A stretch of DNA of 63,934 nt, the filler included, from Conidiobolus incongruus B7586 (Eukaryota): the NCBI GenBank assembly GCA_000697335.1. It is 13 parts of 13 records of this genome, joined end to end, with 100 filler letters (N's around TTAATTAATTAA, not from the genome) between each part and the next. Parts side by side here need not be neighbours in the genome. Positions count along the whole stretch, not along the records: positions 31,440 to 55,104 come from JNEM01007171.1; 12 more parts are not named here. One strand, written 5' to 3'. The notes beneath the pieces are model-generated. The model had not been told where the DNA came from and made no database searches. It saw only the letters and a list, made by a program, of their open reading frames with translations. Positions 4,471 to 59,745 of this stretch are shown piece by piece (the first letter of the stretch is position 1; every line of letters starts with the position of its first letter). A program made the position numbers and the translations under genes.

Positions 4471-4570
4471 NNNNNNNNNNNNNNNNNNNNNNNNNNNNNN
4501 NNNNNNNNNNNNNNTTAATTAATTAANNNNNNNNNNNNNNNNNNNNNNNNNNNNNNNNNNNNNNNNNNNN
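4471..4570. other. Assembly gap spacer N44-TTAATTAATTAA-N44 (others start at 8314, 10613, 19852, 21556, 22828, 29936, 31340, 55105, 59646, 60989, 62720)
   Basis: Identical 100-bp pattern 12 times; the linker gives stops in all frames. Artificial. Confidence 0.98.
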
Positions 4571-4840
4571 TAGGTTTTTCTTTTTTCCTCTTAATTCTTA
4601 CTATTTTTTACTTTTACACTATTTCTAAAATTGAGACTATATTCTATTGATATTGTAGGATATTAACACTACCTAATATAAATCTTAATATATTAGTGAC
4701 TCACCCTAGTTTGAAGCTTAATTAAACTTTGTTTACACTTACACACTACAGCTACATTATATTATTACATTCTATACCACACTACTTTTATATTAAGTCT
4801 TCCTCTACACTATATTAGTTTAACTACCACTATACTTATA

Positions 4841-4850
4841 TGGTAGCAAC
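4841..4850 (+). promoter_or_regulatory. Primer-binding site, probably for initiator tRNA-Met
   Basis: TGGTAGC directly after the LTR end, complementary to a tRNA 3' end GCUACCA. Copy 2 has the mutated form TGGTAAC at 13596. Confidence 0.7.
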
Positions 4851-5107
4851 AACAAAACTATTAAAAACCTACTAGAAATTAATAACTATCTGTATTAAAC
4901 TTAATTATTGTTATTTTAAATCTTATCTATAATTTATTTCATTTAAATTTAACACTATATACTATAATACCACTAAAAAAAGAGATACCCTTATATTATT
5001 TTAATGATGATAACAGCTTAATTACTAAGTAAATCTAAGACTTTAGTCTTTAAAAGCTTATTACCCTCTAAGAAACTTATATTAAACAACTTTTGATTGA
5101 AAAAAAC

Positions 5108-10025: not shown

Positions 10026-10408
10026 TTCTTTAAATTCTTATATATACTTTCATATAATCCAATTAACTATAAATTATATAATTAATTTATACTTATATAG
10101 TTAAATTAATTGTATAAATAGTATTAAATTATCTAATAAATTTGGTTTTTTTTTCCTCTCAATTCTTACTATTTTTTATTTTTACACTATTTCTAAAATT
10201 AAGACTATATTCTATTGATATTGTAGGATATTAGCACTACCTAATATAAATCTTAATATATCAGTGACTCACCCTAGTTTGAAGCTTAATTAAACTTTGT
10301 TTACACTTGCACACTACAGCCACATTATATTATCATATTCTGTGCCACACTACTTTTATATTAAGTCTTCCTCTACACTATATTAGTTTAACTACCACTA
10401 CACTTACA
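10012..10408 (+). repeat. 3' LTR of family A (397 bp; TG start mutated to TA, ends CA)
   Basis: Matches 4571-4840, 13196-13595 and the reverse complement of 59746-60092. Confidence 0.93.
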
Positions 10409-13195: not shown

Positions 13196-16100
13196 TATTA
13201 AGAGATTAGTTCTTTAAATTCTTATATATACTTTTATATAATTTAATTAACTATAAATTATATGATTAATTTATACTTATATAATTAAATTAATTATATA
13301 TATAGCATTGAATTATCTAATAAACTAGGTTCTTCTTTTTTCCTCTTAATTCTTATTATTTGTTATTTTTATACTATTTCTAAAATTAAAACTATATTCT
13401 ATTAATATTATAAGATATTAACACTACTTAATATAAATCTTAATATATTAATGACTTACTTTAATTTGAAGCTTAATTAAATTTTGTTTATATTTGTATA
13501 TTACAGCTATGTTATATTACTACATTCTATACCACACTATTATTATATTAAGTTTTCTTCTATATTATATTAGTTTAATTATTACTATATTTATATGGTA
13601 ACAATAATAAAACTATTAAAAACCTACTAGAAATTAATAACTATCTGTATTAAACTTAATTATTACTATTTTAAATCTTATTTATAATTTATTTTATTTA
13701 AATTTAACATTATATACTATAATACTACTAAAAAATGAAATACCCTTATATTATTTTAATAATGATAATAGCTTAATTACTAAACAAATCTAAAATTTTT
13801 AGTTTTTAAAAGCTTATTACCCTCTAAAAAACTTATATTAAATAACTTCTAATTAAAAAAAATATGTCTCAAAGAGTTTAAATTTAATAAACTAATTACT
13901 TTACTATAGTTAATATATTAAACTACCTCTTTAATATCTTTAAAGATAAATTAATTACTTATGATAATTTTAAAAACCTCTATAAGCTTGAAAACTACTT
14001 TAAAAATATAAAGAATTATTTTGATTTAATCTTTAAAAAAGATTTAAAGAATATCTTTAAATTAGCTACTTTTTTTAGAAAAATCTATTTATAATTGGTA
14101 GTTAACTTATTACAAGCTTAATCCTAAAGAATCTTCAAGAGGATAACTGTTTATAAAGATATAAACTTTTAAATAATTAGAAAAAACCTTTAAAAAAAGT
14201 ATTACCTAAAAAATTAAGTTTAATTAATAAAAGAAAAGCTTTTTTAACTTAAATAAAAAACTTCTACAAGATAATTAATTAAGAAATTTAATAAGATATA
14301 TTTAAACATACTAAATATTACTAAAGAAGAACAAATCTACAAATTATTATAATGTTTTAATTTTTAAATTAAACTCTAATTAGTTAGTAGGGAACACTTT
14401 AATAATATGTTTTTTTCTAATATTTGTAATATAGTAATTATAATTGATAATATCCTTTACTCTATAATTAAATCTTTTTACCTTAAGAATTAATCCTTTA
14501 AAATTTACTTTAACCTATTTAAGTTTTAAATGATAGATGTTTTTATTTTAAAACTTCATGAGAAAATTTTTAGAAAAGAAGCTAAAGCTTACTTAAGAAT
14601 AAACAAAGGTTATTATTATTGTTGAAGGACTTAAGTTAACTATAGAGTTAATAAATATCCCTTAAAGAAACAACATTTGTTTAATTTTTAATAATCCTAA
14701 CCTACCAACTATAAATCAAGCTTAAATAATATTAATATAACCTTAGAATTATTTTTTTCACAATTAGTTAGCAGATTCTAATCTAATCCACAAAAATTCT
14801 AATAGACTACTAATTTTATAAATTAAACTATATATATTAGAGAAATCCAACTAATTAAACCATTAGAAACTAGAAATATTCTAGTAACAAATTTATCTTG
14901 TAATTCTTTACCTTTAACTATTACCCTATTGTTTATGTTAATTAATTCTTTTATAAACACATTTGTTAATGTTTTAATTGATTTTAGTTATTTTAGTTAT
15001 ATTATTTCTTCTTCTATTATTATAAAGCTATCTTTACCTATTTAAAAAAATAACTTGATAATTAAATATGCTAACAACTTAATAGAATAAATATCTAGTA
15101 TTGTATCTAAATACCTATTATTACCCTTTAGCTATTCTTAATATATTAAATTCCTAGTTAACAACATTAGTTATAATTTTATACTAGGTTAAAATTAGTT
15201 TGAATACTATAGTTTTATATCTACAAATATTACCTTAAAAGGTTACAAATCTAGTTTTTTTATATTCTAAAAGAAATTAATAGAATTAATCTTAGAAAAT
15301 CTATATTACCCTATTATAAAACTATTAAATACTATACCTAACACTAATTCTATAATTGTAGGAAATAATTTTATTATTATAAGTAAAAATCAATGTAAAA
15401 AACTAATTAAAAACTTTAATAATTTATAAAGATATATATTTATTTATTATTTATCTATTAGTACTTTATTTGTTAATTTCAATGAAGTTATATCTAATAA
15501 TTACTTTCTATATAATATAATAAGTTAATTTGCTAATGTTTTTGAATTTATAGATAAATTACCTTTTAAATATAATATTAAACATAAAATTAAACTACTC
15601 CCTAGTATATAACTATACTTAAAGTTTACTTACTATTTATCTCTTGAATAATATCAAACATTAAAAGAAGAAATCTAAAAACTATTTAAAAATAAGTATA
15701 TTAGACTTTTTTCTTTACCATAAAGATTTCTAATTCTCTTTGTAAAAAAGCTAATGGTGTTTAGAGATTATATATTAATAACTATGTTTTAAACTCTAAA
15801 ACTATCAAAGATAAAATTTTATTACTAAACCTATATAATATTAAAGATAAACTACTTAAATCAATTATATTTACTAAATTAAATGTTAAGAATAGATATT
15901 ATAATATTAAAGTTGAAGAAAATTTTATCTTTTTAACTATTTTTAATACTCTTTTAAGTTACTATAAATTTACTGTTATAAACTTTTAATTGTGTAATAC
16001 CCTTATAACTTTTATTTAATTTATCAATTCCCTTTTTAATTTTATTTTTAATAACTTTATTACTATTTACTTTAATAATATCCTAATCTATTTAAAAACT

Positions 16101-18336
16101 AAAGAAAAATATATTTAACATGTTAATTAAGTTTTACAAATTATTTAACAATATAAATTACTTTTAAAACTATCAAAATATATCTTTAGTACCTCTTTTA
16201 TCTATTTTTATAGTTATATTATTTCTTCTTAAAGAATTAATATTACTTTAACTAAACTTAATAGTGTTAAAGTTTTTACTATACTTATAAACAAAAACCA
16301 ACTTATATTTATACTTAGATTATTAAATTACTTTAAAAATTTCATTGATTCTTTTGTTGAATATATTACTTTTTTTATTAATCTCTTAAAAAAAAACTTT
16401 CTTTTTGAATAAACCTTATTATATACTTTTTACATAAATGTTTTAATTTTCTATATTACTAATACTTTTACTTTATCTATCTTTAATCTAAAACTACCTA
16501 TTATTATTTTTACTAACTTTAGTTTTTTTATAATTAGTAGATAATTAACTTAGTTTAAATTTAATTTATATTTTATCCTTTAACTATAAGATAAAATAAT
16601 AAATAAAAGAAAATAGGTTAAGTTTTACTTTATAAATATTACTTTAAAACTAATAATATTCTAGTTAAGAAAAATAAAACCAGCTTTATTAAAATACCTA
16701 GTTTATAAATAAAAACTCTTTGTTTTAGTAGAAATAATTAAAAATCACTTATATTTCTTGTTTTACAACTTTTTTTTAATATTTATAGATTATAAATCAC
16801 TTATTTATTTAAATACTCAGAAATATTTATTAAGAAGATAAATTAAATAGATTAAAATTATCTAAACTTATCTTTTTTTTATTTAATATCTTTTAGGTTA
16901 ATAAAATTATATTATAGATACTTTGTTAAAAAACCTTACATACTTACCTTTTTATACTAATTGTAAAAACCCAGCAAATATTAACTTAATGATTATTAAT
17001 AAAAAAAATAAAAAATTTATTAAACTATTTTAAGACACATTATTAAATAATAATTTTTTTATTTTAGTTAAAGAAGAACTTTTTAAACTATTAGAAAACT
17101 AATTAAAATATATTAAAAGATTTAAAATTATCAATAACTTACTATATTATAATAATTGTCTATATGTTCTTAATATTCCCAAAATCCAACAAATAATATT
17201 TGATGAATACTATAACTTATTTGTTAGAGGATATTAAAACTAATTAAAGATTGTTGAGAGAATTAAAATAAAGTATTACTAACTTTCCCTAGTTATATTA
17301 ATTTAAAAATACACTAATACCTATAATATATATTAAAGAATTAAATATAATACTCAACTAAAATATAATAAATTTATTCCCCTACAAGTCTTTAATAAAA
17401 CTTAACAACAAATCCAACTTAATTTCATAGAAATTCTTAAATCAACAAATAGTTATAATAACTTACTAATTGTAATTGATTTATTTTCCAAATATGTTTA
17501 TTTTATTCCTTGTTTCAAAACTTCTACAGCTAAAGATATTATACAATTGTTATTCTTTAATATCTTTACCTACTATCAAATTCCACAAACTATTATATTT
17601 AATAGAGATATATAATTCAACCTTTAATTTTAGAAGTTACTATCTTTTTCTTTTAAAATTAACCTAGCTATATCTACTACTAATTATTACTAAATTAATA
17701 AATTTGTTGAAAAAACTATTAAAACCTTAAAGCAAATGATTAAAGTTTATATTAACACTAATCAATTAAATTAAGATACTTATATCTACCAACTCTAATA
17801 TTCATTTAACATCTTTATTAATAAATCAACAGGTTTTAGCTTTTATTTTATTAATTATAGTAGACATCTTAACTTAATAATTACTTTAAAACTTTAAATT
17901 AACTTATCTTTAGATACTGTTGAATTTTAATCTAATATCAAATATATTAATTCCCTTGTTAAATTTAACTTAGAAGAAAATTAAAGGATTATAGAATAAC
18001 AATACTTAAAGTTATTTAGAAATCCTTTTAAATACAAAATTAATATGTTTGTATATTTAGAATAATTTACCCTTAAACCTACCCTATTTAAATCTAGCTT
18101 AAATCCCAAATACTTACTATTATATTATAATCCCTATAGAATTTAATTTATTCATTTAAATTTTATAAATATTACTTTAGAATTACCTTTAACTTTAAAG
18201 ATTAACCCTACCTTTCACATATTTAAAATTAAACTATATTTTAAAGATTTTAAGATTTTTCTTAATTAATTAAAAACCTTAAAACTAGATCTAATTATTA
18301 ATTAAGATAGAAAAGAAAAATATTATGTTAATTATA
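13196..18336 (+). mobile_element. Ty3/Gypsy chromovirus family A, copy 2, interrupted in its chromodomain by a Tc1 insertion
   Basis: 5' LTR 13196-13595, PBS at 13596, internal region colinear with copy 1 up to KEKYYV at ~18311-18330. More heavily mutated than copy 1. Confidence 0.93.
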
Positions 18337-19851
18337 GACTAACCTACAAAAGTAAGTTATAGAATTAAAAATATATATATATTAATTAATAACTAAAATA
18401 ATTATATATATTAGATTACTTAAAATTATAATATATAATTAAAGTATATTATTTAATAATAAATAAACATATTTAAATATATATAGTAAACTATTAGTAA
18501 AAATATTAACCTTTAATATTTAACTAAAATAAGTTATAAATTTATAGGTTTTTGAGATAAAAGGATATATTTAACAATATATAACCATATCTTTTTCCTC
18601 TCTTTATTATTATATTATATTATATTTTACAAATATATTAAATTTTTTTTATTAGTATTATTATACTTAAATCCCTATTTAAAAAAATCTACTTATACAT
18701 TAATTACTTTTATAAAAAAAGTAAATCAACTTGTGATATTATTAGAATCACTAATGTTAGTTAATTTACTATAGTTAAAGTTGTTAAAAATAACAATAAA
18801 AAACATTTAAACTTAAACTTAAGTGAGTTAAAATTATAAATAAATATAATAAGTATATTTATAGGTTAATTAATATAAGTAAATATAATACTGCTATAGA
18901 AATATAATAAAAACTATAAGATTATACAAGAATATTAATTAGTACTAATACTATTATATGTATTTTATGTTAATATAGATACTATTTACACTTTAAGAAA
19001 AAACACCCTTAATTAAAGAAATCCTATTATAAAGTTAGGTAAGAGTTTAAATGTTGCTACTAATATTAAATTAAAATTAATTAGAGTAAAGTTATTTAAT
19101 TTAATGAAACAAAAATATATTTTAGTAAATTTAATAAAAAAGTTAGATGCTTTAAAAAAGATATAAAATTACTTTATAACTATTATATTAATTTTACCCA
19201 AAAGTATAATAGTGGGTTAATTATTGTTTAAGGATATATATTATCTTTAGTTGTAAAGTATCTTTGTAAAGTTAATAAGGGAATTAATACTAAGATAAAT
19301 TAAAGTATTTTAAACAATAAATTAAAAAAAACCATTGAATAATATAGGTTAAAAAAATCTAATATTATTGTTTAGTAAGATAATACCTTTTATTATACTA
19401 TAATTTCTATTACCAAATAGCTTAAAAATAACAAGATAATAGTTATGAAATAGCTTCTTTAATCTTTTAACTTTAATCTAATTAAATACCTTTAAGATTA
19501 ATTAAAAAAAGCTATTAAAATTTTCCCCCTAGTTAAAAATTTAAATTAACTTTAAAAATATGTTTAAGAAGTATAAAACAAGATTAACCTTTCTTAGTAT
19601 AAAAAGTTAGTTGATTCTATACCCTACAAACTTAAAGAAGTTAAAAAAGTTAAAGATAAATATACTAGGTTTTAATTTTTTTTATCATTAAAAACCTATA
19701 AATTTATAACTTACCCTAGGTAAAATTTAAAAGTTTATATTTTAGTTAATTAATAGTTAACTATCATCTTTTAATAATATATATAATTAATAAATATAAT
19801 AGATTTTAATTATTTAATTTAAATTTATTTTATTAAATATTAATTAAGTTA
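18337..19851 (+). mobile_element. Tc1-like transposon inserted at TA 18335-18336; right end in gap
   Basis: Left TIR GACTAACCTACAAAAGTAAGTTATA (family consensus starts CACT); degenerate transposase colinear with other copies. Confidence 0.9.
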
Positions 19852-23048: not shown

Positions 23049-26000
23049 TACTAACCTATAAAAATAAGTTATAAAATCAAAAATATATATATTTTATTAA
23101 TAACTAAAATAATTATATATATTAGATAATTTAAAACTATAATATATAATTAAAGTATATTATTTAATAATAAATTAATATATTTAAATATATTTAGTAA
23201 ATTATTAGTAAAAATATTAGCCTTTAATATTTAAATAAAATAATTTAAAATTTATAGGTTTTTAAGATAAGGGGATATATTTAATAATATATAACTATAT
23301 TTTTTTTCTCTTTTTGCTATTATTTTATATAATATTTTATAGATATACTAAATTTTTTTTATTAGTATTATTATACCTAAATCTCTATCTAAAAAAATTT
23401 ATTTATATATTAATTAACTTTATAAAAAAGGTAAATCTACTTGTGATATTGTTAAAATTACTAGTTTTAGCTAATTTACTATAGTTAAGGTTGTTAAAAA
23501 TAACAATAAAGAAACATTTAAACTTAAATTTAAGTATATTAAAATTATAAATAAATATAATAAGAAGTATATTTATAAGTAAGTTAATATAGGTAAATAT
23601 AATATTACTATAAGAATATAATAAGAATTATAAAACTATATAAGAATATAAGTTAACACTAATATTATTATATATACTTTATGTTAGTATAGATATCACT
23701 TATATTTCAAGAAAAAACACTTTTAACTAAAGAAATCCTATTACAAAACTAGGTGGGAGTTTAAATATTACTATTAATATTAAACTAAAATTAATTAGAG
23801 TAAAGTTATTTAATTTAATAAAATAAAAATATACTTTAGTAATTTTAATAAAAAAATTAGATACTTTAAAAAAGATACAGAATTATTTTATAACCATTAT
23901 ATTAATTTTACCCAAAAGTACAATAGTAAGTTAATTATTGTTTGGGGATATATATTGTTTTTTGTTACAGATTTATAACTATTCTTAAAATTCCTCTAAA
24001 TTATAATAAGAATCATTCTTTTATAAATAATTAAACAATGTAACTTTCTACTAATGGTAAACTTTAGTGTAATTAGTTTATTAATCAATCTTTTTTAGTT
24101 TAACTTCCTCTATACTTTAACTCTACTCTATTAGTTTAATAAATCTAATAAGTATCTAGTATATAATAATAGTGAGGTTATTACATTCCTTTTAATTTTT
24201 ATCTAATTTAAATATTTTCTTTAATCTTGTATCTTGTTAGTTTTTGTTTTATATTCTTGTTTTTCTCTTATTTTCTGTTTTTTTTTACCTATCTTATTTT
24301 TTATTTCTTGTACCCTAGTTTAATTTTACTAGTATTATAACTTATAATCATAACTCTCTTAGAAGAATTTACTAATGTTTAAGATACAACCACTTAACAA
24401 CTTTAATTTATCATATTTAGGGATTTAATTAATAAAGATAGTAGTTTGAATAAACTTTTCTTTAGAATAAATTACTTGAACTAAGCTTATATACTTTAAA
24501 AGTTAGTGAACTAATATTATTCTCTTTTTACTCTTTAAAAACTAATTGATTTAAATTATAGTGAAACTTCTATTTAAAAAGTCTTCCACAAAAATTTAAA
24601 ATAGTTTAATGGTGAACATTCTCTACTTAAACTTAATACATACAAATTATCATTTTGAGACTATTTCTGACATTGCTAGTTTGATAAAAATAATAAAATA
24701 AGTATCACTGTCTTTTATTTAACTAATATTATAAGAGATTGATGGGACAAACATAATTAAAATAATCTTAGATTATCTTCTAGTGAATAGCTTATTAAAC
24801 ATATTACTTTTTTTAACATGTTGATTTCCTAGTTAAAATCTTTCTTCACTCTAGTTGCTAACATCCCTAAAAATTTTTTGAAATTTATTTGTATAAAATA
24901 AACTAGTTCTATTAATAGTTTTATTAATACTTTAAGATATGTTAAGATTCAGTTACCACTTATTTCAAAATATCAACATAATATTATCTTCTTAAAAGAA
25001 CTTAAATTGTATATTACTAACTTATTAGTATTTTAGATTAATATCAAACTTGATAGATTTGAAGATGTATGTAGCAAAGTATTGTTGATCAAAAACACTA
25101 TATATCTTAACTAACATTCAAATTAGACCTTAGATAATCACATATATAACTTGAAAATTACCCCTAAGTTACCTTTTACACACAACTCTAATTTTAATCA
25201 CATGATTGTTAATTCAACTTAAGTTAAAAAATCCACTTTTTATATTATACAAGGTAAAATATTAAGTCCTAAAATTAAGAATTTCTTGAAAAAATAGAAT
25301 AGATGTTTTTATTACTATCACATACATATCAATTATATCACTAAAGATTATCCTTTAAAGTATTTTAAACTTGGTAACTATGATAATAATAAATATAACA
25401 GAATAAACTCAATCTAACTATTGTTTACCAAGTATATTTTATATCCTAATAATTCACCTTATGTTAACCCTTCTTCTTTTGTTATTAAAAATAGTATTAA
25501 TAATTATGAAATTAATGTCTTGATTAATATAAGTGCTACTAAATATTTAATTAATAGTACTTTAGCTGATAAACTCTATCTACTAAAAAATTAATTCATT
25601 ACCTTTATAATATTAGCTGATAAATTTAAATATTAAAGTGATAATCTAGTTAAGAATTTTTTATCTTTATCCCTAAAACATAACAAAGATATTTCTCTAG
25701 TAAATGCTTTAATTAACTATAATATCATCTTAAGTATAGATTAAATTAAATCATATACTTTATTTACTATTGATTACTCTAATAAAAATTTATCCTTTAT
25801 ATTCTATTATAAATCTACCCCTATTACTATTACTCAAACTACTATTATTGTTTTGTAAATTCTAAACAATTCTCACTTTAATCTTCTTACCAATTATAAA
25901 TTAGCTCCTACTATTAAACTTAATTCTATTATTATATCTCATAAAATATTCACTAAATAATTACTTGCTATTAATTTTATTTCTTCTAGTATAATTTTTG

Positions 26001-29000
26001 TTAACTTAATTACACCTCAATTAAACTCTAGCAATTTTAATCTCAACTCTATATCTTTAGATAACTTATTATATAATATAGAAATGTTATATTCAGATAT
26101 TTTCCAATCTTAAAACTTACTTCCTTTAAAGAAAAATATAGTTTATAAAATCAAGTTAACTTTTAGTTTTGTTTTTATTCATCACTTGATTTATTATATA
26201 TTTACTGAAGAAAATAAATTGTTAAAAAACACCATTACCTAATTTCTAGAAAAAAGTTACATCTATCCTTCTACTTCTTTGTGGGGATTTCTTGTTTTAT
26301 TTGTTAAAAAGAAAAATAGAGGTTTAAGATTTTATGTTGATTTCTGCACCTTGAATAAAATAACCATTAAAGATTATATACCATTGCTTAACTTATTAAA
26401 ATTACACAATTAAATCCTAGGTTGTAATTATTTCACTAAGTTAAATATATAAGATAGATACTATAATATAGCTATACACCTTAATTTAATCTCTTTAACT
26501 ATATTTAATACCTGTTATAACTATTTCAAATTTACAATTCTATTATTTAAACTATACAATGCTCTTGTTATATTTACTTGTTTAATAAATACAATTTTCT
26601 TCAAAACCTAGGATATCTTTGTTATTTTATATTTTGATGATATTCTAGTTTTCTCCAAAACTTTATTAGAATATTAAAAACATATTGAGCATATCTTCTA
26701 GATCTTCTATAAACACTTGCTACCTATTAAATTATTAAAATGTTATTTTATTATTTTAGAAGTTTTATTTTATAGTTATGTTATAACTTCTGATGAAATT
26801 AAAATTAATCTAGATAAAATTAAAGCTATGTAATTTTAGCTTATCTCTGTTGATAAACATTCCCTTATGTTATTTTTAGGTATAGCAAACTATTTCAAGG
26901 ATTTTATTGATGGTTATACAGAAATCATCTTACTATTAACTAACCTACTTTGTAAATTATTTTTATAGATATAAACTCTTTTAGAATATTTTACCTGTTT
27001 AACAATTATTAATGTTGTTTATAATACCCTTGTACTCTATAGTTTTAACTTTTTATTACTAATAATTTTATTCACAAATACTTTTAGCTTTGTTATTGGT
27101 GGTTAGTTAAGTTAACCTAATTCCTCAGATTATAATCTTACTTATTTAAATTAAGTTGAGAGGAAAGTAACACTCAAATTATTAGATTTGAAACACCTTA
27201 ATCTCTGTCCTATTATATTTTATTCTTGTAAAATAACTCTTGCAGAAATAAACTACCTAGTTTATAAATAAAAACTTTTTATTATTATCAAATGCTTTAA
27301 ATACTTCTGTTATTACACACTAGGTTAATTTGTCTATATACTCATAAATTATAAATTTATTATATAGATTAATGATTAACTTTATTTATCTAAACATTAA
27401 TCTTTATAGATTAAATTCTTCTAAGAATTTAACCTACATATTTATTATATTAAAGGAAAATTTAACACTCTTGTTGATTTTATCTCTAAATATCTTGATT
27501 ATGCTTTTATTTATAATAAGTGTAAATCAGCTTGTATTAAATTAAACAATGTTTTTTTAGAATAATCTTAGTCAACTATATAAAATAATATTTAAAATAC
27601 ACTTTTTAGTGATGATTATGCTTTAGAAATCATTAACTATATTTGTAACCTAAATACTTTTACCTTAGCTTATATAAAATGTTATTCATATAATAATAAC
27701 CTATTTTATTATAATTTATATATCTACATTCTTAATGTCCTAAGCATTAAATTACAACTGTTAAACTTTTATCATAACTCTACTATTTTAGGTTATTAAG
27801 GTTAATTCTATACATACTATAAATTCTCTTGTAACTTCTACTAGCTTAATATAGAAAAAGATGTATAAAAGTACATTTGCTCTTGTAATTAATATTAAAT
27901 CAACAAACCTCTTAATCAGTTCTTTTTTGGTAATTTTAATCCATTACCTATTCCCCAAATTTATTAGTTTGATATTACTATGGATTTCACTAAAGCACCA
28001 CAAACCCTAGATAGTTTTAACTATATTTTTATCATCATAGATTATTTGACAAAAATAATACATTTTATACTAACTAATAAGAAAGCTAACTTAGAAACTA
28101 TTGCTAAATTATTTATTAAGAATATCTTTAGATATTATAAACTCCCATTAACTATCATAACAAACTATAATATAAAATTTACAAGTAAATTCTGGTCTTC
28201 ATTTATAAAATTATTAAGTTATCAACATAACCTTATAACCTTTTATTATCAATAATCTAATGGTTAATTTAAATAAGTAATTTGTGTTTTAAAAGAAGTA
28301 CTTAAATCTTACCTCAATTATGATATAGAAAATTAGGTTGAGAATTTACTTCTACTTGAATTTACTTTTAATGATTTAATTAACTTATCCACTAATATAA
28401 CATTATTTTACTTAAATTATAACCAACATCCTACTTTAGTTGTAAATATAACATCTGATATTGATACTTTATCTAATGTTATAGACTTTATAAAGTATAT
28501 ATATTCTTTATTATCTGTAGCTTAAGATTACATCTTCTCTACCTTAAATAAACAAGCTTATTATTATAATTTGAATACCTAACCCACTTTAACTTTATCT
28601 TTTAATACTTTAGTACTATTATCTTTAGATAGAATTAATCTACTTTAAGACTCTAATTAACCTACTAATAAATTATTACCTAAATAGTTAAAACCTTATT
28701 TTGTTAAAGATAAAAAACTACATCCAGATACATATAAATTAATTTTGCCTCTTAACTTACAAATTCACCTTGTTTTCTATATAAAACTATTAAAGTTATA
28801 TCAAGATCCTAGAGAATATTTTTTTAAATATATTACATACTTTTAACCTTTTCTTATTGATTTACAACACAAGATATATATTGTTGATAAAATTGTAACT
28901 TATAAGAATTATTAAAATTAAGATGAATACCTTATACACTAGCAAAGTTATCCTTCTAATAAAGTTACTTAAGTGGATAAAGAAAATATTAAATATCTTA

Positions 29001-29935
29001 AAGCTTTTAGAAAATTTCTTAGTAAACAATCATAATTATTTTAAAGAGAGATTTTATTTTGTTAAAGTAAAGTTTAAGGAAAGTATTACAGATTCATAAC
29101 TATTTTTAAAATTCTTATAAACTATAATATGAATTATTCTTTTATAAATAATTAGATAATATAACTTTTTACAAGTAGTAGACTTTAGTATAATTAGTCT
29201 ATTAATCAACTTTTTTTAGTTTAACTTCCTTTATACTTTAACTCTATTCTATTAATTTAAAAAATCTAGTAAATATCTAGTATATTTTTAGATATAAAGT
29301 ATCTTTATAAAATTAATAGGGGAATTAATATTAAAATATACTAAAGTATTCTAAATAATAAATTAAAAAAAAATTATTAAATAGTATAGGTTAAACAAAT
29401 CTAATGTTATTTTTTAGTAAGATAATACCATTTATTATATTATAACTTTTATTATTAAATAACTTAAAAATAATAAAATAATAATTATAAAATAGTTTTT
29501 TTAATCTTTTAACTTTAATCTAATTAAATATCTTTAGGATTAATTAAAAAAGTTATTAAAGTTTTCCCCTAACTAAAAATTTAAATTAACTTTAAAAATA
29601 TGTTTAAAAAGTATAGAATAAGATTAACCCTTTTTAATATAAAAAATTAATTGATTTTATACCCTACAAACTTAAAAAATTAAAAAAGTTAAAGGTAAAT
29701 ATACTAGGTTTTAATTTTTTTTATCACTAAAAACCTATAAATTTATAATTTACCCTAGGTAAAATTTAAAGGTTTATATTTTAACTAATTAATAACTAAA
29801 AATTATCATTTAATGATATATATAATTAATAAATATAATAGATTTTAATTATTTAATTTAAATTTATTTCATTAAATATTCATTAAGTTATTAGTAAAAA
29901 TATATGTGTTTATAATTTTATAACCTACTTTTATA
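23049..29935 (+). mobile_element. Tc1-like transposon split by Gypsy family B (pieces 23049-23962 and 29285-29935)
   Basis: The two halves join seamlessly as GATATATATTG-TTTTT-AGAT.., matching the uninterrupted copy near 11480-11500. Confidence 0.92.
23963..29284 (+). mobile_element. Ty3/Gypsy chromovirus family B, complete (5322 bp), hypermutated
   Basis: 201-bp LTRs 23963-24163 and 29084-29284, 5-bp TSD TTTTT, purine tract AAGGAAAG. Zn knuckle 25304, PR (VLINISAT) 25517, RT YFDDILVFS 26630, IN (ORF 27980) and chromodomain (YIVDKIV, ~28877) are all in one frame. Confidence 0.96.
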
Positions 29936-35501: not shown

Positions 35502-36605
35502 ATGTACAATAATAATTTTAATCCCCAGGGAGGTGGTGGATATCCACATGCTGGACCTAATAATAATAACAATAACATGTATCCTCCCCCTAATGCAAAT
35601 ATGGGGTTTGTATTCCCTAACAGTGGTCCCAATCCTGGAGGTAATTTTAACAATAACAATAACCCATTCCCTGGACCTAATGTAGGAGGATTCATATCAC
35701 CTAATTCAAGTCCTTATCCGCCATCTAATTATGGACCTTTCAATCCTCCTAACAACATGTACCCACCAAATAATAATAACAATTTTAGGCCACCTATATC
35801 CCCTGGATTCATGCCACCAGGTGGAGGACCCAATAATAATTTCAACCAAGGCTATCCAAATCCTGGTAACCACGGTTCTCCAAATCAATTTAATCCTGGA
35901 TATGGGAACCAAGGCCCGCCGAATCAATTTAATCCTGGATATGGGAACCAAGGCCCACCAAACCAGCATAGTTCTGGATATGGAAACCAAGGTCAGCAAA
36001 ACCAATATAATCAAGGGCAACAAAATTCGTGGAACCAAGGTCAACAAAACCAGAGGCCACCAGACCAATTTGGTCAAGGTCCACCATCCAACCAAAATAA
36101 CCAGCGCCCTCCCCAAAATCAACAACAGCAACCTCCCTCTGGTGGCCCTGTTAAACTAGAATGGCGTCCTAGCAACAGGGGTCAAGTACCCCCAGATGCA
36201 ATTCGAGGAGGTAAGGAAGCTGACGGTCGTCCACTTTATATTGCTCGCAAAAGAATGGAAGGAGGTCTCCAAGTTGGCAAAGTGGCGCCCCATCTTGAAG
36301 GATGTTTCATCCCCTATGACTGCAAAGAGAAATTCTTCTACGACTGTGAAGTGTTGTGCGGTGATGCAAGTAAACTAAGATGGGTTGAAGTGCGTGGAAG
36401 ATGCCAACCTAAAGGATGGGTTCCTGTCGAAGCTGGCTTTGAAAGAGATGGTACCAAACTTTGGATTGCTAGAATTATTGAAGGTGATGCCGAAATGTTG
36501 GGTAAAGTAGGATCCCATTTCAAATCTGGTATTGTGTATGGCTACGATCTTAAAGAGAGATATGCTAGGGATGGTGAGGTTTATCAAGTCCTTGCAATGC
36601 CTTAA
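35502..36605 (+). CDS. DM9-repeat (DUF3421-type) protein with an N-terminal N/Q/P/G-rich low-complexity region; intronless
   Basis: Two DM9-like repeats: W....GQVPPDAIRGGKEADGRPLYIAR....G...GKV..H..GCFIPY..KE..EVL and WV...G..P...VEAGFERDGTKLWIAR......GKV..H....YGY..KE..YQVL. The first ~215 aa are low complexity. Confidence 0.88.
   Translation: MYNNNFNPQGGGGYPHAGPNNNNNNMYPPPNANMGFVFPNSGPNPGGNFNNNNNPFPGPNVGGFISPNSSPYPPSNYGPFNPPNNMYPPNNNNNFRPPISPGFMPPGGGPNNNFNQGYPNPGNHGSPNQFNPGYGNQGPPNQFNPGYGNQGPPNQHSSGYGNQGQQNQYNQGQQNSWNQGQQNQRPPDQFGQGPPSNQNNQRPPQNQQQQPPSGGPVKLEWRPSNRGQVPPDAIRGGKEADGRPLYIARKRMEGGLQVGKVAPHLEGCFIPYDCKEKFFYDCEVLCGDASKLRWVEVRGRCQPKGWVPVEAGFERDGTKLWIARIIEGDAEMLGKVGSHFKSGIVYGYDLKERYARDGEVYQVLAMP
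35883..35999 (+). repeat. 39-bp coding tandem repeat x3 (NQFNPGYGNQGPP)
   Basis: Units start at 35883, 35922 and 35961; the third is diverged. Confidence 0.9.
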
Positions 36606-37634
36606 TTGTGATTATAATTAGTAGTAAGAATCTACTTATAATTGGTTTGCATATTGAAGTTTATCCAAAATATCGAGTTGTTTCATTTGATTAATAGCAA
36701 TAGTTATTTTTGTTAGCTTACACTAACTATATTTGATAATCAATCTGTTTACTGCTCTATACAAACAATTATAAACATCATTTTATACCAAATCTCAACT
36801 TTTTAATTAAATAAAATTCAATTGGTTTTATTATTAGATATACTATAATATAATACTTGAAATATTCAATAATAATTTATTTTTTGAACAGCTAGATATA
36901 TTTAGTATCTATTAGAATATATGAATTTTAACAGTTAAAAAACTGTAGTATTGAATCAATAAATGAAGGATTTTACATCTGATTATTATGCTCTTTTATT
37001 CTCTAATTATTATAGATAATATTTATTCTTTCAGGTTACCATCATGTTTAAGAAAATCGTTTAGTAATTCGTATCATTGCATTAATCTCACTATACTACC
37101 TAATACTAGTATTAAATTCTGGAATTTATTTTCCTCATATCTCTCCATGTTCTCACCAATTAAACTTCACAAAACAATCTGAACTTCAGAATATCCTCAC
37201 TAACTATGATTATCTTTAGTTTTTATCTTAACATATTTTTCGATTATCAAATATAATAACTGAATTTCGATATTAACTATAGTTACTAATAGAAACAATC
37301 TAACCTTGAACTATTCTCGCTTGCAAATTCCTCTGATTATCATCATATCCTTTCAATAGGTTCAAAGAAAATTCATGGACTTGATTCCCAATACTATATC
37401 TACTATTTCTTAATCTAATTATTCACAAATTTATTCCCATACAGTTCAATTAAAAAAATTATATTTATTTGTGAAAACATCAATTCATTATATAATAAAA
37501 ATGAGATACTGAGAAGTTGATAATTATTAAAATATACTATAAGATTGAAACGAATATAAAAAATTTTGATAAAGTAAGCTAAAGTTATGAATGAAATTTG
37601 AATTAATGAAAAAAGTGAACTTGAAATAGATATA

Positions 37635-37707
37635 CGCCCAATGTGGGGTTCGAACCCACGACCCTCAGATTAAAAGTCTGATGCTCTACCGACTGAGCTA
37701 ACCGGGC
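37635..37707 (-). tRNA. tRNA-Lys (anticodon UUU), intronless
   Basis: Reverse complement GCCCGGTTAGCTCAGTCGGTAGAGCATCAGACTTTTAATCTGAGGGTCGTGGGTTCGAACCCCACATTGGGCG: 73 nt, cloverleaf, A and B boxes. A T-run terminator lies at ~37609-37615. Confidence 0.97.
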
Positions 37708-37717
37708 TGTTGATTTA

Positions 37718-38014
37718 TGTCACAGTTCTCAGTGGCATCACCACTGAAATCATGATCTACAGGGAGTTGTCACCAATCCATAACCCGCACAACTAGAACT
37801 GTGCTGTATACTGGTGGATGAACCACTAATAAACAGAAATATATTAAGGTAAATAAGGTTTATTGTAGATATTGCACATAATAACAAGCTGAGGCTTAGT
37901 TATTGTACCAAAGATGGTATTTATATAGTAATACCAGTATTGAGATTGAGTCATATACACTTGGTATGATTCTATTGGCTGGATGGTAGGAGAAACAGGA
38001 TCAGATCTGTCACA
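37718..38014 (-). mobile_element. Solo LTR (297 bp) with 5-bp TSD ATTTA
   Basis: TGT...ACA termini; ATTTA at 37713-37717 and 38015-38019; higher GC than flanks. On the minus strand a TATATAAA box (~37920-37927) precedes AATAAA (~37859-37864). Confidence 0.88.
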
Positions 38015-39221
38015 ATTTAAGGAATAAGCATAAATATAATAACCTAATCACTTTTTATTAATTCATTGTCAATTTGAAATTATACTCCTTTAACAATATT
38101 TAATTATATAATATATATATATATATATATTTAAATATTTTAGTTTCTAATATATGCTATTATCATAGCTATATTATATTCAACTATTCCATCAATATTC
38201 ACTCAGTCGCAATAATTCAATATTTTATTACAGCAATAACAATAATAATAATAATAATAATAAAACCAGATATCAGAATCATTACATCAATAATTATTTT
38301 TTCTAATTTTTTATCATTTGTTAATATTTTGAAAAATTACTTGAAAGATAATTATTTATATATTACTAATTGAATCAATTTTTATATCATAATTATACTA
38401 TTAAATTATATGATAATTAAAATCAAATTAAACTCTTGTGCAAAATGAAGTCATGATTTTAGATTTATTATTTGTTTATAATTAAAATGTATTTTAGCTC
38501 ATAAAATACTTAATATTTTGTTTATTTATTTATTGTAAGTATATATCCAACATTGTAAATTGAATATCAAATGTCTCAGTGATTTAAATTATTTTGAAAG
38601 AATACTAACAAATTTCAATTCTAAACTAAAAATGAATATTTACAAATATTATTTACGAGATGAAAATCAAATTAAATGGTGAAAATAATATAAAAGCTTA
38701 ATCGGAATTTCGTTTTAATTTTTCATATTTCAAGTTTATTATACACACACCCTTAGACTTGTAACAATGAACACCTTTCACATTTCTTCATTTTAGCTTT
38801 AGTCCATAATTCCATCACTTTATATACTGTAATGCAAATGCAATATCCTCACTATCAAACCTGGAGTAGCATTCACCTTGTTCTATTTCTTGAGTCATTT
38901 TATTATCGAATTTCAACATAACGCCTCTTAATTCTAAAGAAATTCTTTAATTTATGTGCTATTTGACGTATTGAATTGAAAACAAATCTTTTATAAAACC
39001 ACTCCACTATAGTAGTCAAATTTCAAGTTTTTCACCATTTAGCTAATGTGAATTTAAATTCATTTCCTTAATAAATTTTATGGGACAACGATAATAGAGT
39101 ATAAATGAATGATACGTAATCAAAAATTACCTAAAATATAAATTTAATATTCTTAATCATCATTAACTATTCAATTAAATTTTTAAAATAATTCCAAGTT
39201 TAATAATTTAAGTATATTATA

Positions 39222-44351: not shown

Positions 44352-45190
44352 TTAATTCTTCACAATTTCTTTGAATTTGTCGTAGGCAGCCAAAATACTG
44401 GCACCCTTGAAAAGGGACTTGAATCCTTCAGTTTTAATGATTTGTCGGAAACGTTCCATGGATGATGAATATTTGATAGGTTGACCAGATGTCCGCATCA
44501 TCCTACGACTGACAGTATTAATAGGATAGGTGATCACATAAGAGGGTAAGAAGGTGCGCAAATCTAATATGAATGTATTAAATGGATTGTTTTTAGGTCC
44601 ATCAGTCTCTAGTATGGGTTTGATAGAGTGGAGTAAACCTAAGCAAAATCCACTGTTGATGATAATACCAACGCAGGAGATACTAAAACCACGATAAAGA
44701 CCCACAATACTATCTAATGAAAGGGTCTTTTTGTAACATTGATTAATCCTTCGAATTCGCGTTGACCAATTTTTTGGGATGTTATGATATCATTAGCCAG
44801 GCGAGTACGAGCATAGTCCAAAGGATAGGTGATTATGAGGAAGAGTGCACCAGCAGCACCACTGCAAGCTAAATTACCACCCAACCATTTCCAGTAACCA
44901 TCCCTATCTTCATCGTATCCAAACATGGTTATGAAATTTTCATTCAAAATCATACCAAGCGCTTGGGTACGAGAGCCGTTAATAATACTAGTTGTATTAC
45001 CTCTCCACAAGGAAATCACTCCTTCTTGCTTCACAACACAGGAGAAACAGTCTCCAATACCCTTGAAAGAAGTGACAAGACGACCTTGCTTAATAAGCTC
45101 ATTTTGATTTTGGATCAGCAGCTTAATGCGTTCAATAGGAGCAATGACAGTCAAAGAGATGGCAGAAGAGATACCACCAATCATATACTC
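44352..45190 (-). pseudogene. ADP/ATP carrier (AAC/ANT)-like copy with a frameshift and an eroded signature
   Basis: APIERIKLLIQNQ, SLWRGN, DGYWKW.GNLA, YPLDYARTRLAND. A 1-bp loss near 44735 splits the two ORFs. RRRMMM has become SRRMMR and the last helix is shortened. First exon uncertain. Confidence 0.82.
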
Positions 45191-46381
45191 CTATACCTGA
45201 ATTAATAATATTTTATTTTATTTTACTTCATATCGAGAAATAAAAGCAGTCATAAAATTTACCAATTCGATCACTATATTAAAACTAGTGAATTTTATTA
45301 CCTCCAATAAATTAGGCTGATTATTATCATTCATTTTATTTTAAGATAAAAAATCTCAATATTATTTCCAAATCTCCTTTCCAAAAATTAGTATATATAA
45401 CATATGTGACTATTCTAAACTAACCATCAATATATATTTTTTATAGTTTATATCCACAAAATTTTCTAAATATCAATTATTAAATTTCAAAATAACTGTA
45501 ATATTTTCTCCTATTCAAATACTGTTATTTATCAATAAAATTGCAATTATATTTAATTGTTTTACTTGAACCAACTATAATTGCGTTTACTCATAATTTA
45601 TATCTTAAAATTTGTCTTGAAAATTAATATTCTCGTGAAAATGTTGGATTATTGACAAATAATTAAGTTGATTCAATTTTGTGTATATATTTGAAATATC
45701 ACAATAACTATATATTTTATTGAATAATGTCATAGTGAAATGAATATTATATTTTCAATTACAATTAATTATACCATATTTTAAATATAATATACTCACA
45801 ATTTTTTATTAATTTTGACTAAAACTAAGTAACAATTAGTGAACAAATATTTAATAAATGGAAGAGACAATCCATCTTGTTCGTTTAAAAGCTCATTGTA
45901 AGTTTAAAACTCGTTATGAAAACTTTATATTATAAACTATCGTTAATTTAAAATATAATTTTGACGAATAAGATAACGTAATGGATTGTTGTTTCTGTGC
46001 ATCAAATTTTTATTGATATATTGTTAATTATAATGATTCATTGATACTCTTAGAGTCATTTGAAAAACAATTCTACAATAGAAATCAATTTAATACAAAT
46101 ATCATTCATTTATATCTATATTCTCCATGATATATATTGCTAAATATCACTTGAAAAGAAATTTTTATTAAAATATTAAACACCCAAATTTAGTTGACTT
46201 TATTTAATTAAATTACTTAATTAGTAAAATATATTGATCAATTATTAATATTTTCATATTTTATAAAAAGAAATTCAATTATTTAATAATATACAATCAA
46301 TTTTATAAATATTGTACAACTGTAAAAAACAATATAATTTTAATCAACTACCCGAGTATTAAAGTTTCATGTTTTATTATA

Positions 46382-46567: not shown

Positions 46568-47099
46568 TAATTATTATGATAATAAAAGCAAGGCAAGTTC
46601 AAAAGAGTTATAAAATTACGATCTTATCACCAAGATAATTCTCAATATTTAAATTAGTGTAATGACGATACAAATTCAATTAAGCATTTTGTGAAAGTAA
46701 TTTTGTATCAATATAATTATACATATTAATCGTCAACGAAGATATAAGGATAATATATTTGATCTGTTGCCATTTTTCCATATACCATAATAATGTATAT
46801 ATTTTTTACAGTTATATGATGAAATGTTATTTTACCATAAAAAATCAAATTGATTATCAAAAATATAATTAATTTTATAATATAAAAAAATCCATAATGT
46901 TAACCAAAATATTGTATTAGTTCTAAATATAATTTATTAAAATACAGAACTGGTTCAAATGATTTTGATAATTTGAGTAAAATTTCTTGTAAAACCTAAT
47001 AAGAATTATAAATATCACAATGATCTAAAATCACTAATTTGGTGATCTATGTGGATATTGGATTATAAATCATATGAAGCTGAGATTAGGAATTGAAGA

Positions 47100-47885
47100 T
47101 TTGTTGAAATTTATGACTGACACCGACACCTTTAAAGAGGGACTAGAACCTTTAGTTTTAATGATATATTCGAAATATTAGAGGAAACATGAATATTTCA
47201 CTGGTTAATCAGAGATTATCATCATTTAATGAAAGATAATGTCAATAGGACATGACATAGTGCCAGCAGCAACCGCATTGCTTCAATCCAAGAAAAGCAT
47301 CGCAAAATGTTTTCTTTGAGGTAATTATTGGTTAATATTGGATTTATTGAGTCAAGTATACCAAAATGCAAACCATGGTACACGAGTATATCGCCACAGA
47401 AGATTTTGAAACCACGGTATAAACAAATAATGTTATTGGAAACGATTGTCTTTCAATAAATGTCGATCAATTATTTGAATTGGCATTCACCCCCGTTTTT
47501 AGTGATTCGGAAGTTGTTGGCTAAACGAGTAAGGGAATAATCCAATAGATATACAAAAAAGAGGAAACAGCCATATTGGCATCGCCAGCGGCCATATTGC
47601 TAGCAAGCCGCTTCCGGTAACCATCCTTATGCTTATCGTTATCAAGCATTGCCATGTACTTGTCCTTAAGTGTCATAACACTAACAGCATTACATCTCCA
47701 TAAGGCAACAATACCTTCTTCCTTAACAATATATGCGAAGCAATTTATCATGCCTTTGCAGTGAGCGGAGATAAGGCCTCGCTCGATAAACCAATTCTGA
47801 TTTTTAATAATCAGCTTAATACGTTCAAGGAGGACAGTAGCAGCGATGACTATATAGGATGAAATACCGCCAAAAATAAAATTCT
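47100..47885 (-). pseudogene. Second, more degraded ADP/ATP carrier pseudogene
   Basis: FIFGGISS...LERIKLIIKNQ, IVKEEGIVALWRCN, KDGYRK.LASNMAAG, LYRGFK, SLFKGVG; multiple frameshifts and stops. Confidence 0.85.
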
Positions 47886-51108: not shown

Positions 51109-52205
51109 ATGTCTAGTAATACTCATCATTCAACTCAACAGATTGCAATTAATAAGTCATTATCATCAAATCCTAGCTTTTTTATAAAATATGCTCCGTT
51201 CTTGGCAGGTGGGACGGGTGCTTGCTGTGCCGTGACATTTTCCAACCCTTTCGAAGTAGTTAAAACTAGGTTACAGCTCCAGGGTGAGTTGGTCAAGTCT
51301 GAACAGTTGACAAATCGTCCATATCGTAATTTGCCTCAAGCTCTAAGACTGATTTTTCAACATGAGGGAATTCGTGGACTTCAGAGGGGACTTGGTGCAG
51401 CGTACGGATACCAGCTCATTATGAACGGTACGCGCTTCGGGTTTTACGACGTGTTTAAGAGTGGATTAATTAACGGTTTTGACGTTACTTCTACCACAGG
51501 AACTCTCGTGTCCAGTATTGGCGCTGGCGCAATGTCTGGCATGTTGGCAGCATTTTTGGGATCGCCCCTATTCATGGTGAAAACTCGATTACAAGCGTAC
51601 TCGCCCCACCTATCTGTTGGTACTCAGCACAAGTACTCGGGAGTGTTCGGTGGCTTGAAGTCAATCCACCAGGAGAATGGGATCAAGGGCTGGTTCAGAG
51701 GAAGTGTGCCAGCGATGATACGTACTGGTGTGGGATCAGCGGTCCAACTCACATCTTATGATTTCATTAAGAAGAACTTGATCACTAGTGGCCTCTTCCA
51801 AGATGGATTCTATGTCCACGCAACTTCCAGTTTATTATGTGGCGTTCTAGTGTGTACGGCGATGAATCCTTTTGATGTAGTTACTACTAGAATGTACAAT
51901 CAACCTGTCGACCCTGCCACCGGCAAGGGTAAACTGTACAGAAACATGTTTCACTGCTTCTCGAGCACTGTGAAGACTGAAGGTATTCGAGGTTTACTAA
52001 AAGGTTTTACTGCTCATTACTTTAGAATTGGGTATATTATCATTATTATTCATACTCTATAATGATTAATTAATTAATTCAATTTTAGACCCCATACTGT
52101 CCTAACCTTTATCTTTATGGTAACTCATAGCATTATATTTATTAATTAATATATTAAACAATTGGATTTTAGGAAAAAATTAAATCAATCATTGTCAAAA
52201 ACTAA
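51109..52205 (+). CDS. OAC1: Mitochondrial oxaloacetate/sulfate carrier (SLC25A34/35-like). Exons 51109-52031, 52089-52119, 52173-52205
   Basis: AVTFSNPFEVVKTRLQLQGEL, GLQRGLGAAYGYQLIMNG.RFG.Y, GSPLFMVKTRLQAYS, GSAVQL.SY, MNPFDVVTTRMYNQ; spliced end YFRIGPHTVLTFIFMEKIK. Confidence 0.93.
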
Positions 52206-59105: not shown

Positions 59106-59226
59106 TATTTATTTTGCTTTATTATAATTTTCAAAATGATATATTTAATTATAATAAAATTATAGATGTTTTGATAATTGAAAATATATTCAATCAATAT
59201 TATAATTGAAATAAAACTTAAAAAAA

Positions 59227-59645
59227 TATAACAGGGCAATGTATACAAGTTGTTTCAATGTGAACAGTGTGGGAAAAAGTCCTTGTTTATTTGGCAATGG
59301 TTCCCATTTTTATATGTAAAAGTTGGTGAGGGTTCAGAGGTAAAATTAGACAAGATAAGATCAAGTAGATAAAAGAGATAAGATAAGGTAAGCAGATATG
59401 ATTGACAGTGTCACGATGATGACAAAGTGATCTGATCTATGACACTCCCCTCAGATTGAGGTGTCCTTATTAGGAGACGCTCTAATCTTTGAATGCTTCT
59501 CAGCGTAGGCATGATAGGCATTGGTCTTTTTAACGCTATTATAGCGTTCCCAAGTAGCTTCATTTTTAGGGTATCCTTTCCATTGGACGAGGTATAGATC
59601 TTGGTTATAATAGCGTCTATGGCCGAGGATTTTATCGACGATGAA
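59227..59645 (-). mobile_element. 3' end of chromovirus family C: intact chromodomain frame (59451-59645), PPT, ~218-bp 3' LTR (59227-59444)
   Basis: Minus-strand translation FIVDKILGHRRYYNQDLYLVQWKGYPKNEATWERYNSVKKTNAYHAYAEKHSKIRASPNKDTSI*, then GAGGGGAG, then TGTCATAG. The rest of the element is in the gap. Confidence 0.92.
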
Positions 59646-59745
59646 NNNNNNNNNNNNNNNNNNNNNNNNNNNNNNNNNNNNNNNNNNNNTTAATTAATTA
59701 ANNNNNNNNNNNNNNNNNNNNNNNNNNNNNNNNNNNNNNNNNNNN

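What the first reader, a model, noticed from the sequence alone, without database searches (positions are those of the whole stretch)
37635..38019. Solo LTR inserted 10 bp upstream of a tRNA gene: candidate Ty3-like Pol III-targeted retrotransposon
Seen: a 297-bp TGT...ACA element with perfect ATTTA TSDs. Only 10 nt (37708-37717) separate it from the 5' end of tRNA-Lys(UUU), and it appears co-oriented. It is the only LTR I recognised in the gene island; the other LTR elements sit in the TE graveyards. Known: yeast Ty3 integrates at Pol III start sites via TFIIIB/TFIIIC, and Dictyostelium DGLT-A also targets upstream of tRNA genes. Inference: a tRNA-targeting LTR family in this lineage, using a safe harbour outside heterochromatin.
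Basis: partly seen in the sequence, partly recalled or inferred. Interest (0 to 1): 0.8.

Follow-up and report, generated by a model that had tools for sequence, protein, structure and literature searches.

The report
tRNA-targeting solo LTR in Conidiobolus
A 297-base repeat, most likely the leftover end of a retrotransposon, sits at the predicted start site of a tRNA gene in a Conidiobolus-like fungus, and the flanks of other copies carry a tRNA signature at the same distance, so this family likely aims at tRNA genes as yeast Ty3 and Tj1 do.

Summary
A 297-bp TG..CA element (37718-38014) lies between two ATTTA copies, 10 nt from the 5' end of tRNA-Lys(UUU). CCAAT, TATA and AATAAA are in order on the tRNA's strand. 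The host is a Conidiobolus relative. One copy alone proves little: such spans occur 25 times in the window, and some copy near a tRNA has a 7-12% chance. Laying assembled contigs from one sample adds more. The element is a family of roughly 100-190 copies, and 13-15 contigs per run leave it exactly at 37718 into mixed flanks. The majority line of those flanks reproduces a tRNA A-box in the window's register (12 of 13 letters in the best run, 7-10 in the others) but not this tRNA's stem. Simulation puts this at about 4-6 of 14 flanks and never at 0. These may be duplicates of one locus, so at least two, perhaps 5-7, independent insertions. The target duplication abuts a TCAACA start motif, as for Ty3; spacing and orientation match Tj1. 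No coding region was recovered, so Ty3/gypsy membership and TFIIIB tethering are inferred. Verdict: a new member of a known kind.

The parts
37609..37614 (-). T6 run, likely Pol III terminator of the tRNA gene
   Evidence: sequence, 21-26 nt downstream of the tRNA 3' end; function inferred
37635..37707 (-). tRNA-Lys(UUU) gene, intact-looking; the target
   Evidence: ARAGORN; Rfam RF00005 72 bits
37708..37713 (-). TCAACA motif at -6..-1 of the mature tRNA; predicted Pol III start at the first A
   Evidence: same motif reported to span yeast tRNA start sites (PMC6673722 section 7); start not measured here
37713..37717 (.). [quoted passage not shown]
37718..38014 (-). 297-bp solo LTR, U5 end towards the tRNA, co-oriented; member of a family of roughly 100-190 copies
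37729..37747 (.). 7-bp hairpin near the U5 end
   Evidence: predicted fold, (whole element z = -2.8)
37859..37864 (-). AATAAA, likely polyadenylation signal of the LTR
   Evidence: function inferred
37919..37927 (-). TATA box-like sequence, likely LTR promoter
   Evidence: function inferred
37974..37978 (-). CCAAT box-like sequence in U3; many copies switch to another U3 variant beyond 37978
   Evidence: table 7 (9-12 contigs per run loose behind 37978, agreement 0.82-0.85)
38015..38019 (.). [quoted passage not shown]
38031..38041 (-). TATA-like AT tract at -32..-22 of the tRNA in the reconstructed empty site, now displaced by the insertion
   Evidence: weak, since the region is about 80% AT

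Best explanation
The 297-bp element belongs to a multi-copy repeat family and is most likely the solo LTR of a retrotransposon, probably Ty3/gypsy, whose integrase would be tethered to the Pol III initiation complex (likely TFIIIB) and so likely inserts at tRNA transcription start sites. Inferred course of events: TFIIIC bound the A and B boxes of tRNA-Lys and loaded TFIIIB about 30 nt upstream. The intasome joined the element at -6 and -10 with a 5-bp stagger, directly against the CAA start motif and in the tRNA's orientation. Later LTR-LTR recombination removed gag-pol and left one LTR between the two ATTTA copies. Shown: the termini, duplication, spacing, copy family and the A-box signal in other copies' flanks. 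Inferred: LTR orientation (from signal order), the start site, superfamily, tethering factor and solo-LTR origin.
For: (1) Family and terminus: 164-180 contigs laid per run; summed depth is 100-190 times that of long single contigs (rough); 13, 14, 15 and 14 contigs leave exactly before 37718 with agreement 0.50-0.51. (2) The majority line of those flanks, compared by eye with the window's 30 nt before 37718, matches tRNA positions 8-20 in register at 12, 10, 8 and 7 of 13 letters (X4, X3, X1, X2; G/C letters 6, 4, 2 and 1 of 6). In X4 it matches only 2 of 7 acceptor-stem letters, so these are not this tRNA-Lys. (3) Simulation: with 0 of 14 tRNA-bearing flanks, 4 or more G/C matches never occurred in 20,000 trials; 4-6 of 14 fits the range seen. 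Random insertion gives even one in-register flank among 14 with P = 1-2e-4, using the tRNA count of C. coronatus. (4) The duplication's fifth base is next to the C of TCAACA, as for Ty3 (mean offset +0.46 to -1.41 nt; PMC6673722 section 7). (5) Tj1 inserts 5-11 bp upstream of mature 5' ends, always co-oriented, with a 5-bp duplication (PMC4600332). (6) All LTR elements listed as inserting within a few tens of bp of tRNA starts are Ty3/gypsy (PMC5911963 table 1).
Against: The four runs are one sample, possibly the source of the assembly, so they are one data set. Only the majority line of the flanks was seen, no single flank, and how the tool weights contigs is not known. Two of four runs show a weak signal (1-2 of 6 G/C letters). 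The line also has G at the place of tRNA position 1 in all four runs, and G beside the LTR end in two. Each has P of about 0.01-0.02 if the flanks share only the A-box, but both fit if 4-5 flanks are copies of one sequence; the independent insertions may therefore be as few as two. About 8-10 of 14 flanks do not show a tRNA in this register; they may be other spacings, the opposite orientation, internal sequence or untargeted sites. No gag/pol, primer site or polypurine tract was found, and no related LTR in the window, even allowing for C-to-T erosion.
Confidence: 0.75

Rival explanations
1. Weak or partial targeting. The family is an LTR retrotransposon that mostly inserts in AT-rich or repeat DNA; only a minority of copies sit at tRNA starts, and the A-box signal comes mainly from one LTR+tRNA locus that was later duplicated, or from a tRNA-derived repeat family.
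For: Extra shared G letters outside the A-box fit 4-5 flanks sharing all 30 letters; most flanks show no in-register tRNA.
Against: Even one further locus in exact register and orientation, with a different tRNA stem, has P of about 1e-4 by chance.
Confidence: 0.14
2. Composite unit. Full-length or non-autonomous members carry a captured tRNA gene 10 nt after the 5' LTR, in place of a normal primer-binding site, so the A-box seen in the flanks is internal to the element.
For: The shared letters extend into the spacer in two runs. On the element's strand the first flank letters form a pyrimidine tract, like the PPy signature of Skipper (PMC5006619 passage). Some U5-side flanks are expected to be internal sequence.
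Against: In the window the tRNA lies outside the duplication and has a different stem, yet the same 10-nt register. A capture in that register would itself derive from a targeted insertion.
Confidence: 0.06
3. Not an LTR: a short non-autonomous DNA transposon or other repeat with TG..CA ends that prefers tRNA starts.
For: No internal region or paired copy was seen.
Against: The terminal inverted repeat is only 8 bp with a mismatch; the duplication is 5 bp; CCAAT-TATA-AATAAA are in order on one strand; subfamily variation is concentrated at the U3 end.
Confidence: 0.04
4. Chance: a randomly inserting family, one copy of which happens to lie beside a tRNA gene.
For: With 150 copies and about 1300 tRNA genes, some copy within 5-35 nt is expected with 7-12% probability.
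Against: It cannot explain the in-register A-box in other copies' flanks.
Confidence: 0.01

Closest known systems
Tj1 of Schizosaccharomyces japonicus (Ty3/gypsy; PMC4600332, passages and Results section read)
   Same: Inserts 5-11 bp upstream of mature tRNA 5' ends, most often -10/-11; all mapped Pol III insertions co-oriented with the gene; 5-bp duplication; short LTR (244 bp).
   Different: Tj1 is a complete, self-priming element with tested transposition. Here there is only a 297-bp LTR from a different phylum, with no protein to compare, and fixed orientation is suggested only from the U5 side.
Ty3 and its solo sigma LTRs, Saccharomyces cerevisiae (PMC6673722 section 7; PMC5911963 passages; bioRxiv 10.1101/2021.07.27.453949 abstract)
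   Same: 5-bp duplication whose tRNA-proximal end abuts the CAA/TCAACA start motif; solo LTRs left at tRNA genes.
   Different: In budding yeast the start lies near -13, so Ty3 sits further from the mature 5' end, and it inserts in both orientations. TFIIIB binding is shown for Ty3 and only inferred here.
DGLT-A (Dictyostelium), beta/Tca8 (Candida albicans), Tyl3/Tyl6/Ylt1 (Yarrowia) (PMC5911963 table 1; PMC5006619 passages)
   Same: Ty3/gypsy LTR elements found just upstream of tRNA genes.
   Different: DGLT-A lies 13-33 bp upstream in either orientation and Tca8 6-30 bp upstream; no sequence comparison was possible.

Membership tests
LTR retrotransposon solo LTR | TG..CA termini with short inverted repeat and 4-6 bp target-site duplication | tested here: met
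   left terminus confirmed by 13-15 divergent flanks per run
LTR retrotransposon solo LTR | dispersed multi-copy family with different flanks | tested here: met
   rough depth ratio 100-190
LTR retrotransposon solo LTR | U3-R-U5 signals (promoter, then poly(A) signal) on one strand | tested here: met
   motif match only
LTR retrotransposon solo LTR | paired copies flanking an internal region with primer site and polypurine tract | tested here: inconclusive
   none in the window; single flank sequences not shown
Ty3/gypsy (Metaviridae) | pol order PR-RT-RH-IN and RT phylogeny | not testable with these tools
   no internal region recovered; no genome held; pattern scans empty
Pol III start-site-targeted elements (Ty3/Tj1/DGLT-A type) | independent copies at a narrow distance upstream of different tRNA genes | tested here: met
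   window copy plus in-register A-box with a different stem in other flanks; number of independent sites unresolved, at least two
Pol III start-site-targeted elements (Ty3/Tj1/DGLT-A type) | tRNA-proximal end of the duplication within about 1 nt of the start motif | tested here: met
   one locus only; start predicted from TCAACA
Pol III start-site-targeted elements (Ty3/Tj1/DGLT-A type) | majority of copies at Pol III genes genome-wide | tested here: inconclusive
   about 4-6 of 14 U5-side flanks in one register, from a filtered and partial sample
Pol III start-site-targeted elements (Ty3/Tj1/DGLT-A type) | integrase interaction with TFIIIB or TFIIIC | not testable with these tools
   no integrase sequence
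Chromoviruses of the window's TE graveyards | LTR sequence shared with the graveyard elements | tested here: not met
   no blastn similarity; erosion-tolerant best score 73 against 63-92 for 6 shuffles

The most novel reading that the evidence does not exclude
This is one member of an old, undescribed lineage of Pol III-start-targeting LTR retrotransposons spread across early-diverging fungi (here Entomophthoromycotina; unchecked scan notes report the same in Basidiobolus, Dimargaris and gut fungi). It inserts in one fixed orientation like Tj1 and survives beside tRNA genes, while chromodomain-guided elements in the same genome are eroded by heavy C-to-T mutation. Some members may move as LTR+tRNA composites.
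Probability: 0.3. Interest if true: 0.65.

Novelty: new member of a known kind. Interest (0 to 1): 0.45.

Why it matters
Precise Pol III-start targeting by LTR elements is in print for ascomycete yeasts and dictyostelids (PMC5911963 table 1); seven paper searches listed no title or abstract start that reports a case in Zoopagomycota. A family in Conidiobolus would extend the habit to an early-diverging fungal phylum. It would help decide whether Ty3, Tj1 and these elements share one ancestral tethering module or converged, and whether fixed orientation (called unique to Tj1 in PMC4600332) recurs. The solo LTRs also mark Pol III start sites in a lineage where these are unmapped. The mechanism itself is well known, so the interest is moderate.

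Tried and rejected
No genome is held for this window, so the genome-wide distance test could not be run. Exact-pattern scans for the LTR end found 0 matches in metagenome contigs and 0 in viral contigs. A search for a Conidiobolus-like carrier locus in metagenome contigs, meant to show an empty site, returned one unrelated locus at 28% identity (L001). No RNA holder was listed; this says nothing on expression. Zero depth over 38021-38090 is taken as a filter effect, not a finding. A primer-binding-site reading of the flank signal was rejected: the A-box is in the sense orientation of the element's strand, starts 17 nt from the LTR end, and the flank does not end in CCA. Relationship to the graveyard LTRs was rejected. 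Earlier scan notes had nothing for this genome or this sequence. The 3 loose ends behind 38014 and the 7-8 before 37727 were too few or too short to show or exclude a tRNA. No supplementary files were read; repeat tables in the supplements of PMC12387763 or PMC10515909 could name such a family.

Full report
Setting. The window is about 18% GC, with eroded repeat blocks at both sides and a gene island from about 33 to 53 kb. The carrier protein at 51109-52059 is 79% identical to one of Conidiobolus coronatus; the next named fungal hits are at 55% or less. The host is therefore a Conidiobolus relative (Entomophthoromycotina); the species was not determined. No whole genome is held. The tRNA lies between a DM9-repeat gene and a proteasome alpha subunit-like gene (read from the sequence; not searched).

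Observation. tRNA-Lys(TTT) is at 37635-37707 on the minus strand and is the only tRNA in the window. The element 37718-38014 is 297 bp, with TG..CA ends, 7 of 8 terminal letters complementary, ATTTA on both sides and 10 nt to tRNA position 1. Its GC is 0.37 against 0.22 and 0.20 in the flanks. On the minus strand CCAAT, TATA and AATAAA follow in LTR order; the plus strand has no TATA match. So the U5 end likely faces the tRNA and the two are co-oriented. These features alone are weak: 25 TGT..ACA spans with identical 5-bp flanks occur in the window, 4 with 7-8 of 8 terminal complementarity. With 150 copies and the 1294 tRNA genes reported for C. coronatus (PMC12387763, passages), some copy would fall 5-35 nt from a tRNA with 7-12% probability.

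Other copies. Four DNA runs of one sample hold the region (4 of 7 listed). Their contigs were laid on 37709-38090 at 80% likeness. 164-180 contigs per run lie on the element, mostly 80-95% alike, with transitions dominating. Summed depth is 100-190 times that of long single contigs; the tool warns that this is no copy number, so it is an order of magnitude only. In the four runs 13, 14, 15 and 14 contigs leave the element exactly before 37718 into mixed sequence (agreement 0.50-0.51), which fixes that terminus. A further 7-8 leave before 37727 with a variant terminus. On the U3 side 9-12 contigs per run switch to a variant sequence behind 37978, and only 3 loose ends behind 38014 are listed, in one run; 154 further rows of that table were not shown.

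The targeting test. Table 7 prints a 30-letter majority line of the flanks before 37718. I compared it by eye with the window's own 30 nt at that place. Over tRNA positions 8-20 it matches in register at 12 of 13 letters in X4, 10 in X3, 8 in X1 and 7 in X2 (G/C letters 6, 4, 2 and 1 of 6). G10 is matched in all four. Over the acceptor stem X4 matches only 2 of 7, so the flanks are not this tRNA-Lys. In simulations of 14 flanks drawn from the window, 4 or more G/C matches never arose in 20,000 trials with no tRNA-bearing flank, and about 4-6 such flanks fit the observed range and agreement. Random insertion would give one in-register flank among 14 with P = 1-2e-4.

Limits of that test. The runs are one data set, possibly the assembly's source. 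No single flank was seen, and the weighting of the majority line is unknown; one deep contig could count as several. The line also shows G at the place of tRNA position 1 in all runs and G beside the LTR end in two. This is unlikely (0.01-0.02 each) if the flanks share only the A-box, and fits if they share the stem or all 30 letters. The tRNA-bearing flanks may thus be one tRNA type that begins with C (tRNA-Tyr does, recalled), a tRNA-derived repeat, or duplicates of one LTR+tRNA locus. Some flanks may be internal sequence beginning with a pyrimidine tract. The safe statement is at least two independent insertions in the same register and orientation, perhaps 5-7 in this sample. About 8-10 of 14 flanks show no tRNA in this register. 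Against that, the laying drops human-like contigs, which should remove tRNA-bearing ones, and the window's own right flank has zero depth.

Geometry. In the reconstructed empty site the duplicated 5 bp are -10..-6, directly followed by CAACA and the mature 5' end; -6..-1 reads TCAACA, and an AT tract lies at -32..-22. TCAACA spans yeast tRNA start sites, and Ty3's fifth duplicated base lies on average within about 1.5 nt of its C (PMC6673722, section 7 read); here the distance is 1. The motif occurs at 0.0005 per strand position in the gene island. Tj1 insertions in S. pombe lay 5-11 bp upstream of mature 5' ends, all co-oriented, and Tj1 has a 5-bp duplication (PMC4600332, passages and Results read). 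Ty3 is positioned by integrase contacts with TFIIIB (PMC5911963 passages; bioRxiv 10.1101/2021.07.27.453949 abstract).

Mechanism. Most likely a Ty3/gypsy intasome was tethered to TFIIIB on the tRNA-Lys promoter, joined at the start site, and was later reduced to one LTR by recombination. The internal promoter, predicted start motif and terminator remain, so the tRNA is probably still transcribed, although its upstream AT tract was moved 302 nt away. The superfamily is inferred from the known cases; no coding region was recovered.

Graveyard elements. The eroded element at about 4.6-10.2 kb has RT, integrase zinc finger and weak SH3 and chromodomain matches, and another chromodomain lies at 59454-59693. 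These are chromovirus-like, and their LTRs show no similarity to this one. Two targeting habits in one genome are therefore plausible. The 'safe harbour' claim is not shown: the solo LTR is CpG-depleted (0.10), and a graveyard piece is equally GC-rich. RIP-like signatures have been reported in related Entomophthorales (PMC10515909 passages).

Novelty. Searches listed no title or abstract start on tRNA-targeted LTR elements in early-diverging fungi. The fungal LTR survey PMC3248453 has no occurrence of 'tRNA' (passages); PMC7175516 (passages) and PMC5006619 (passages) cover yeasts and dictyostelids. Subscription papers and repeat databases were not searched. Unchecked notes of this scan report like cases in Basidiobolus, Dimargaris, a gut fungus and another early-diverging fungus. 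These are leads, not support, and they make this one of a series rather than a lone case. Verdict: real, probably targeted (0.75), a new member of a known kind, interest 0.45.

Noticed in passing
window 4571-10186 and 13326-17065: Heavily eroded Ty3/gypsy chromovirus-like elements (RT E 8e-14, integrase zinc finger E 5e-10, weak SH3 and chromodomain), with CpG observed/expected 0.0 and CA also depleted (0.63; 0.46 in the repeat at 18419-19851): a RIP-like or methylation-driven erosion.
   Followed up: partly
window 59213-59693: Less eroded chromodomain-coding piece (E 1e-11; GC at least 0.36) inside a repeat block.
   Followed up: partly
window 1785-2860: GC-rich stretch coding an OTU-like cysteine protease domain (E 2e-16) and an unassigned 173-aa frame, next to a DDE_3 transposase fragment (490-771); possibly cargo of a DNA transposon.
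   Followed up: partly
window 23965-29285: Eroded element with about 200-bp direct repeats at its ends (87.5%) and a weak integrase core match near its 3' end (27968-28252).
   Followed up: partly
window 44352-45190 and 47521-47883: Two ADP/ATP-carrier-like mitochondrial carrier copies; the first changes frame at about 44714-44789 and the second looks truncated, so both may be pseudogenes or assembly errors.
   Followed up: no
window 35502-36605: Single-exon gene with an Asn/Pro/Gly/Gln-rich N-terminus and DM9 repeats (E 2e-26), about 1 kb from the tRNA.
   Followed up: no
window, 12 places, e.g. 4471-4570: Scaffold gaps written as 44 N, a 12-base tag and 44 N; the repeat blocks are joined across such gaps, so their layout is uncertain.
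   Followed up: no
window 45497-45703 and 46794-47425: Two more TGT..ACA spans with 5-bp direct flanks in the gene island (GC 0.20 and 0.27), probably chance; copy number not tested.
   Followed up: no
contigs laid at 37795-37861 and 37842-37900: One contig per run skips 65 nt inside the LTR and another replaces 37843-37899 by 20 letters: internally deleted LTR variants.
   Followed up: no
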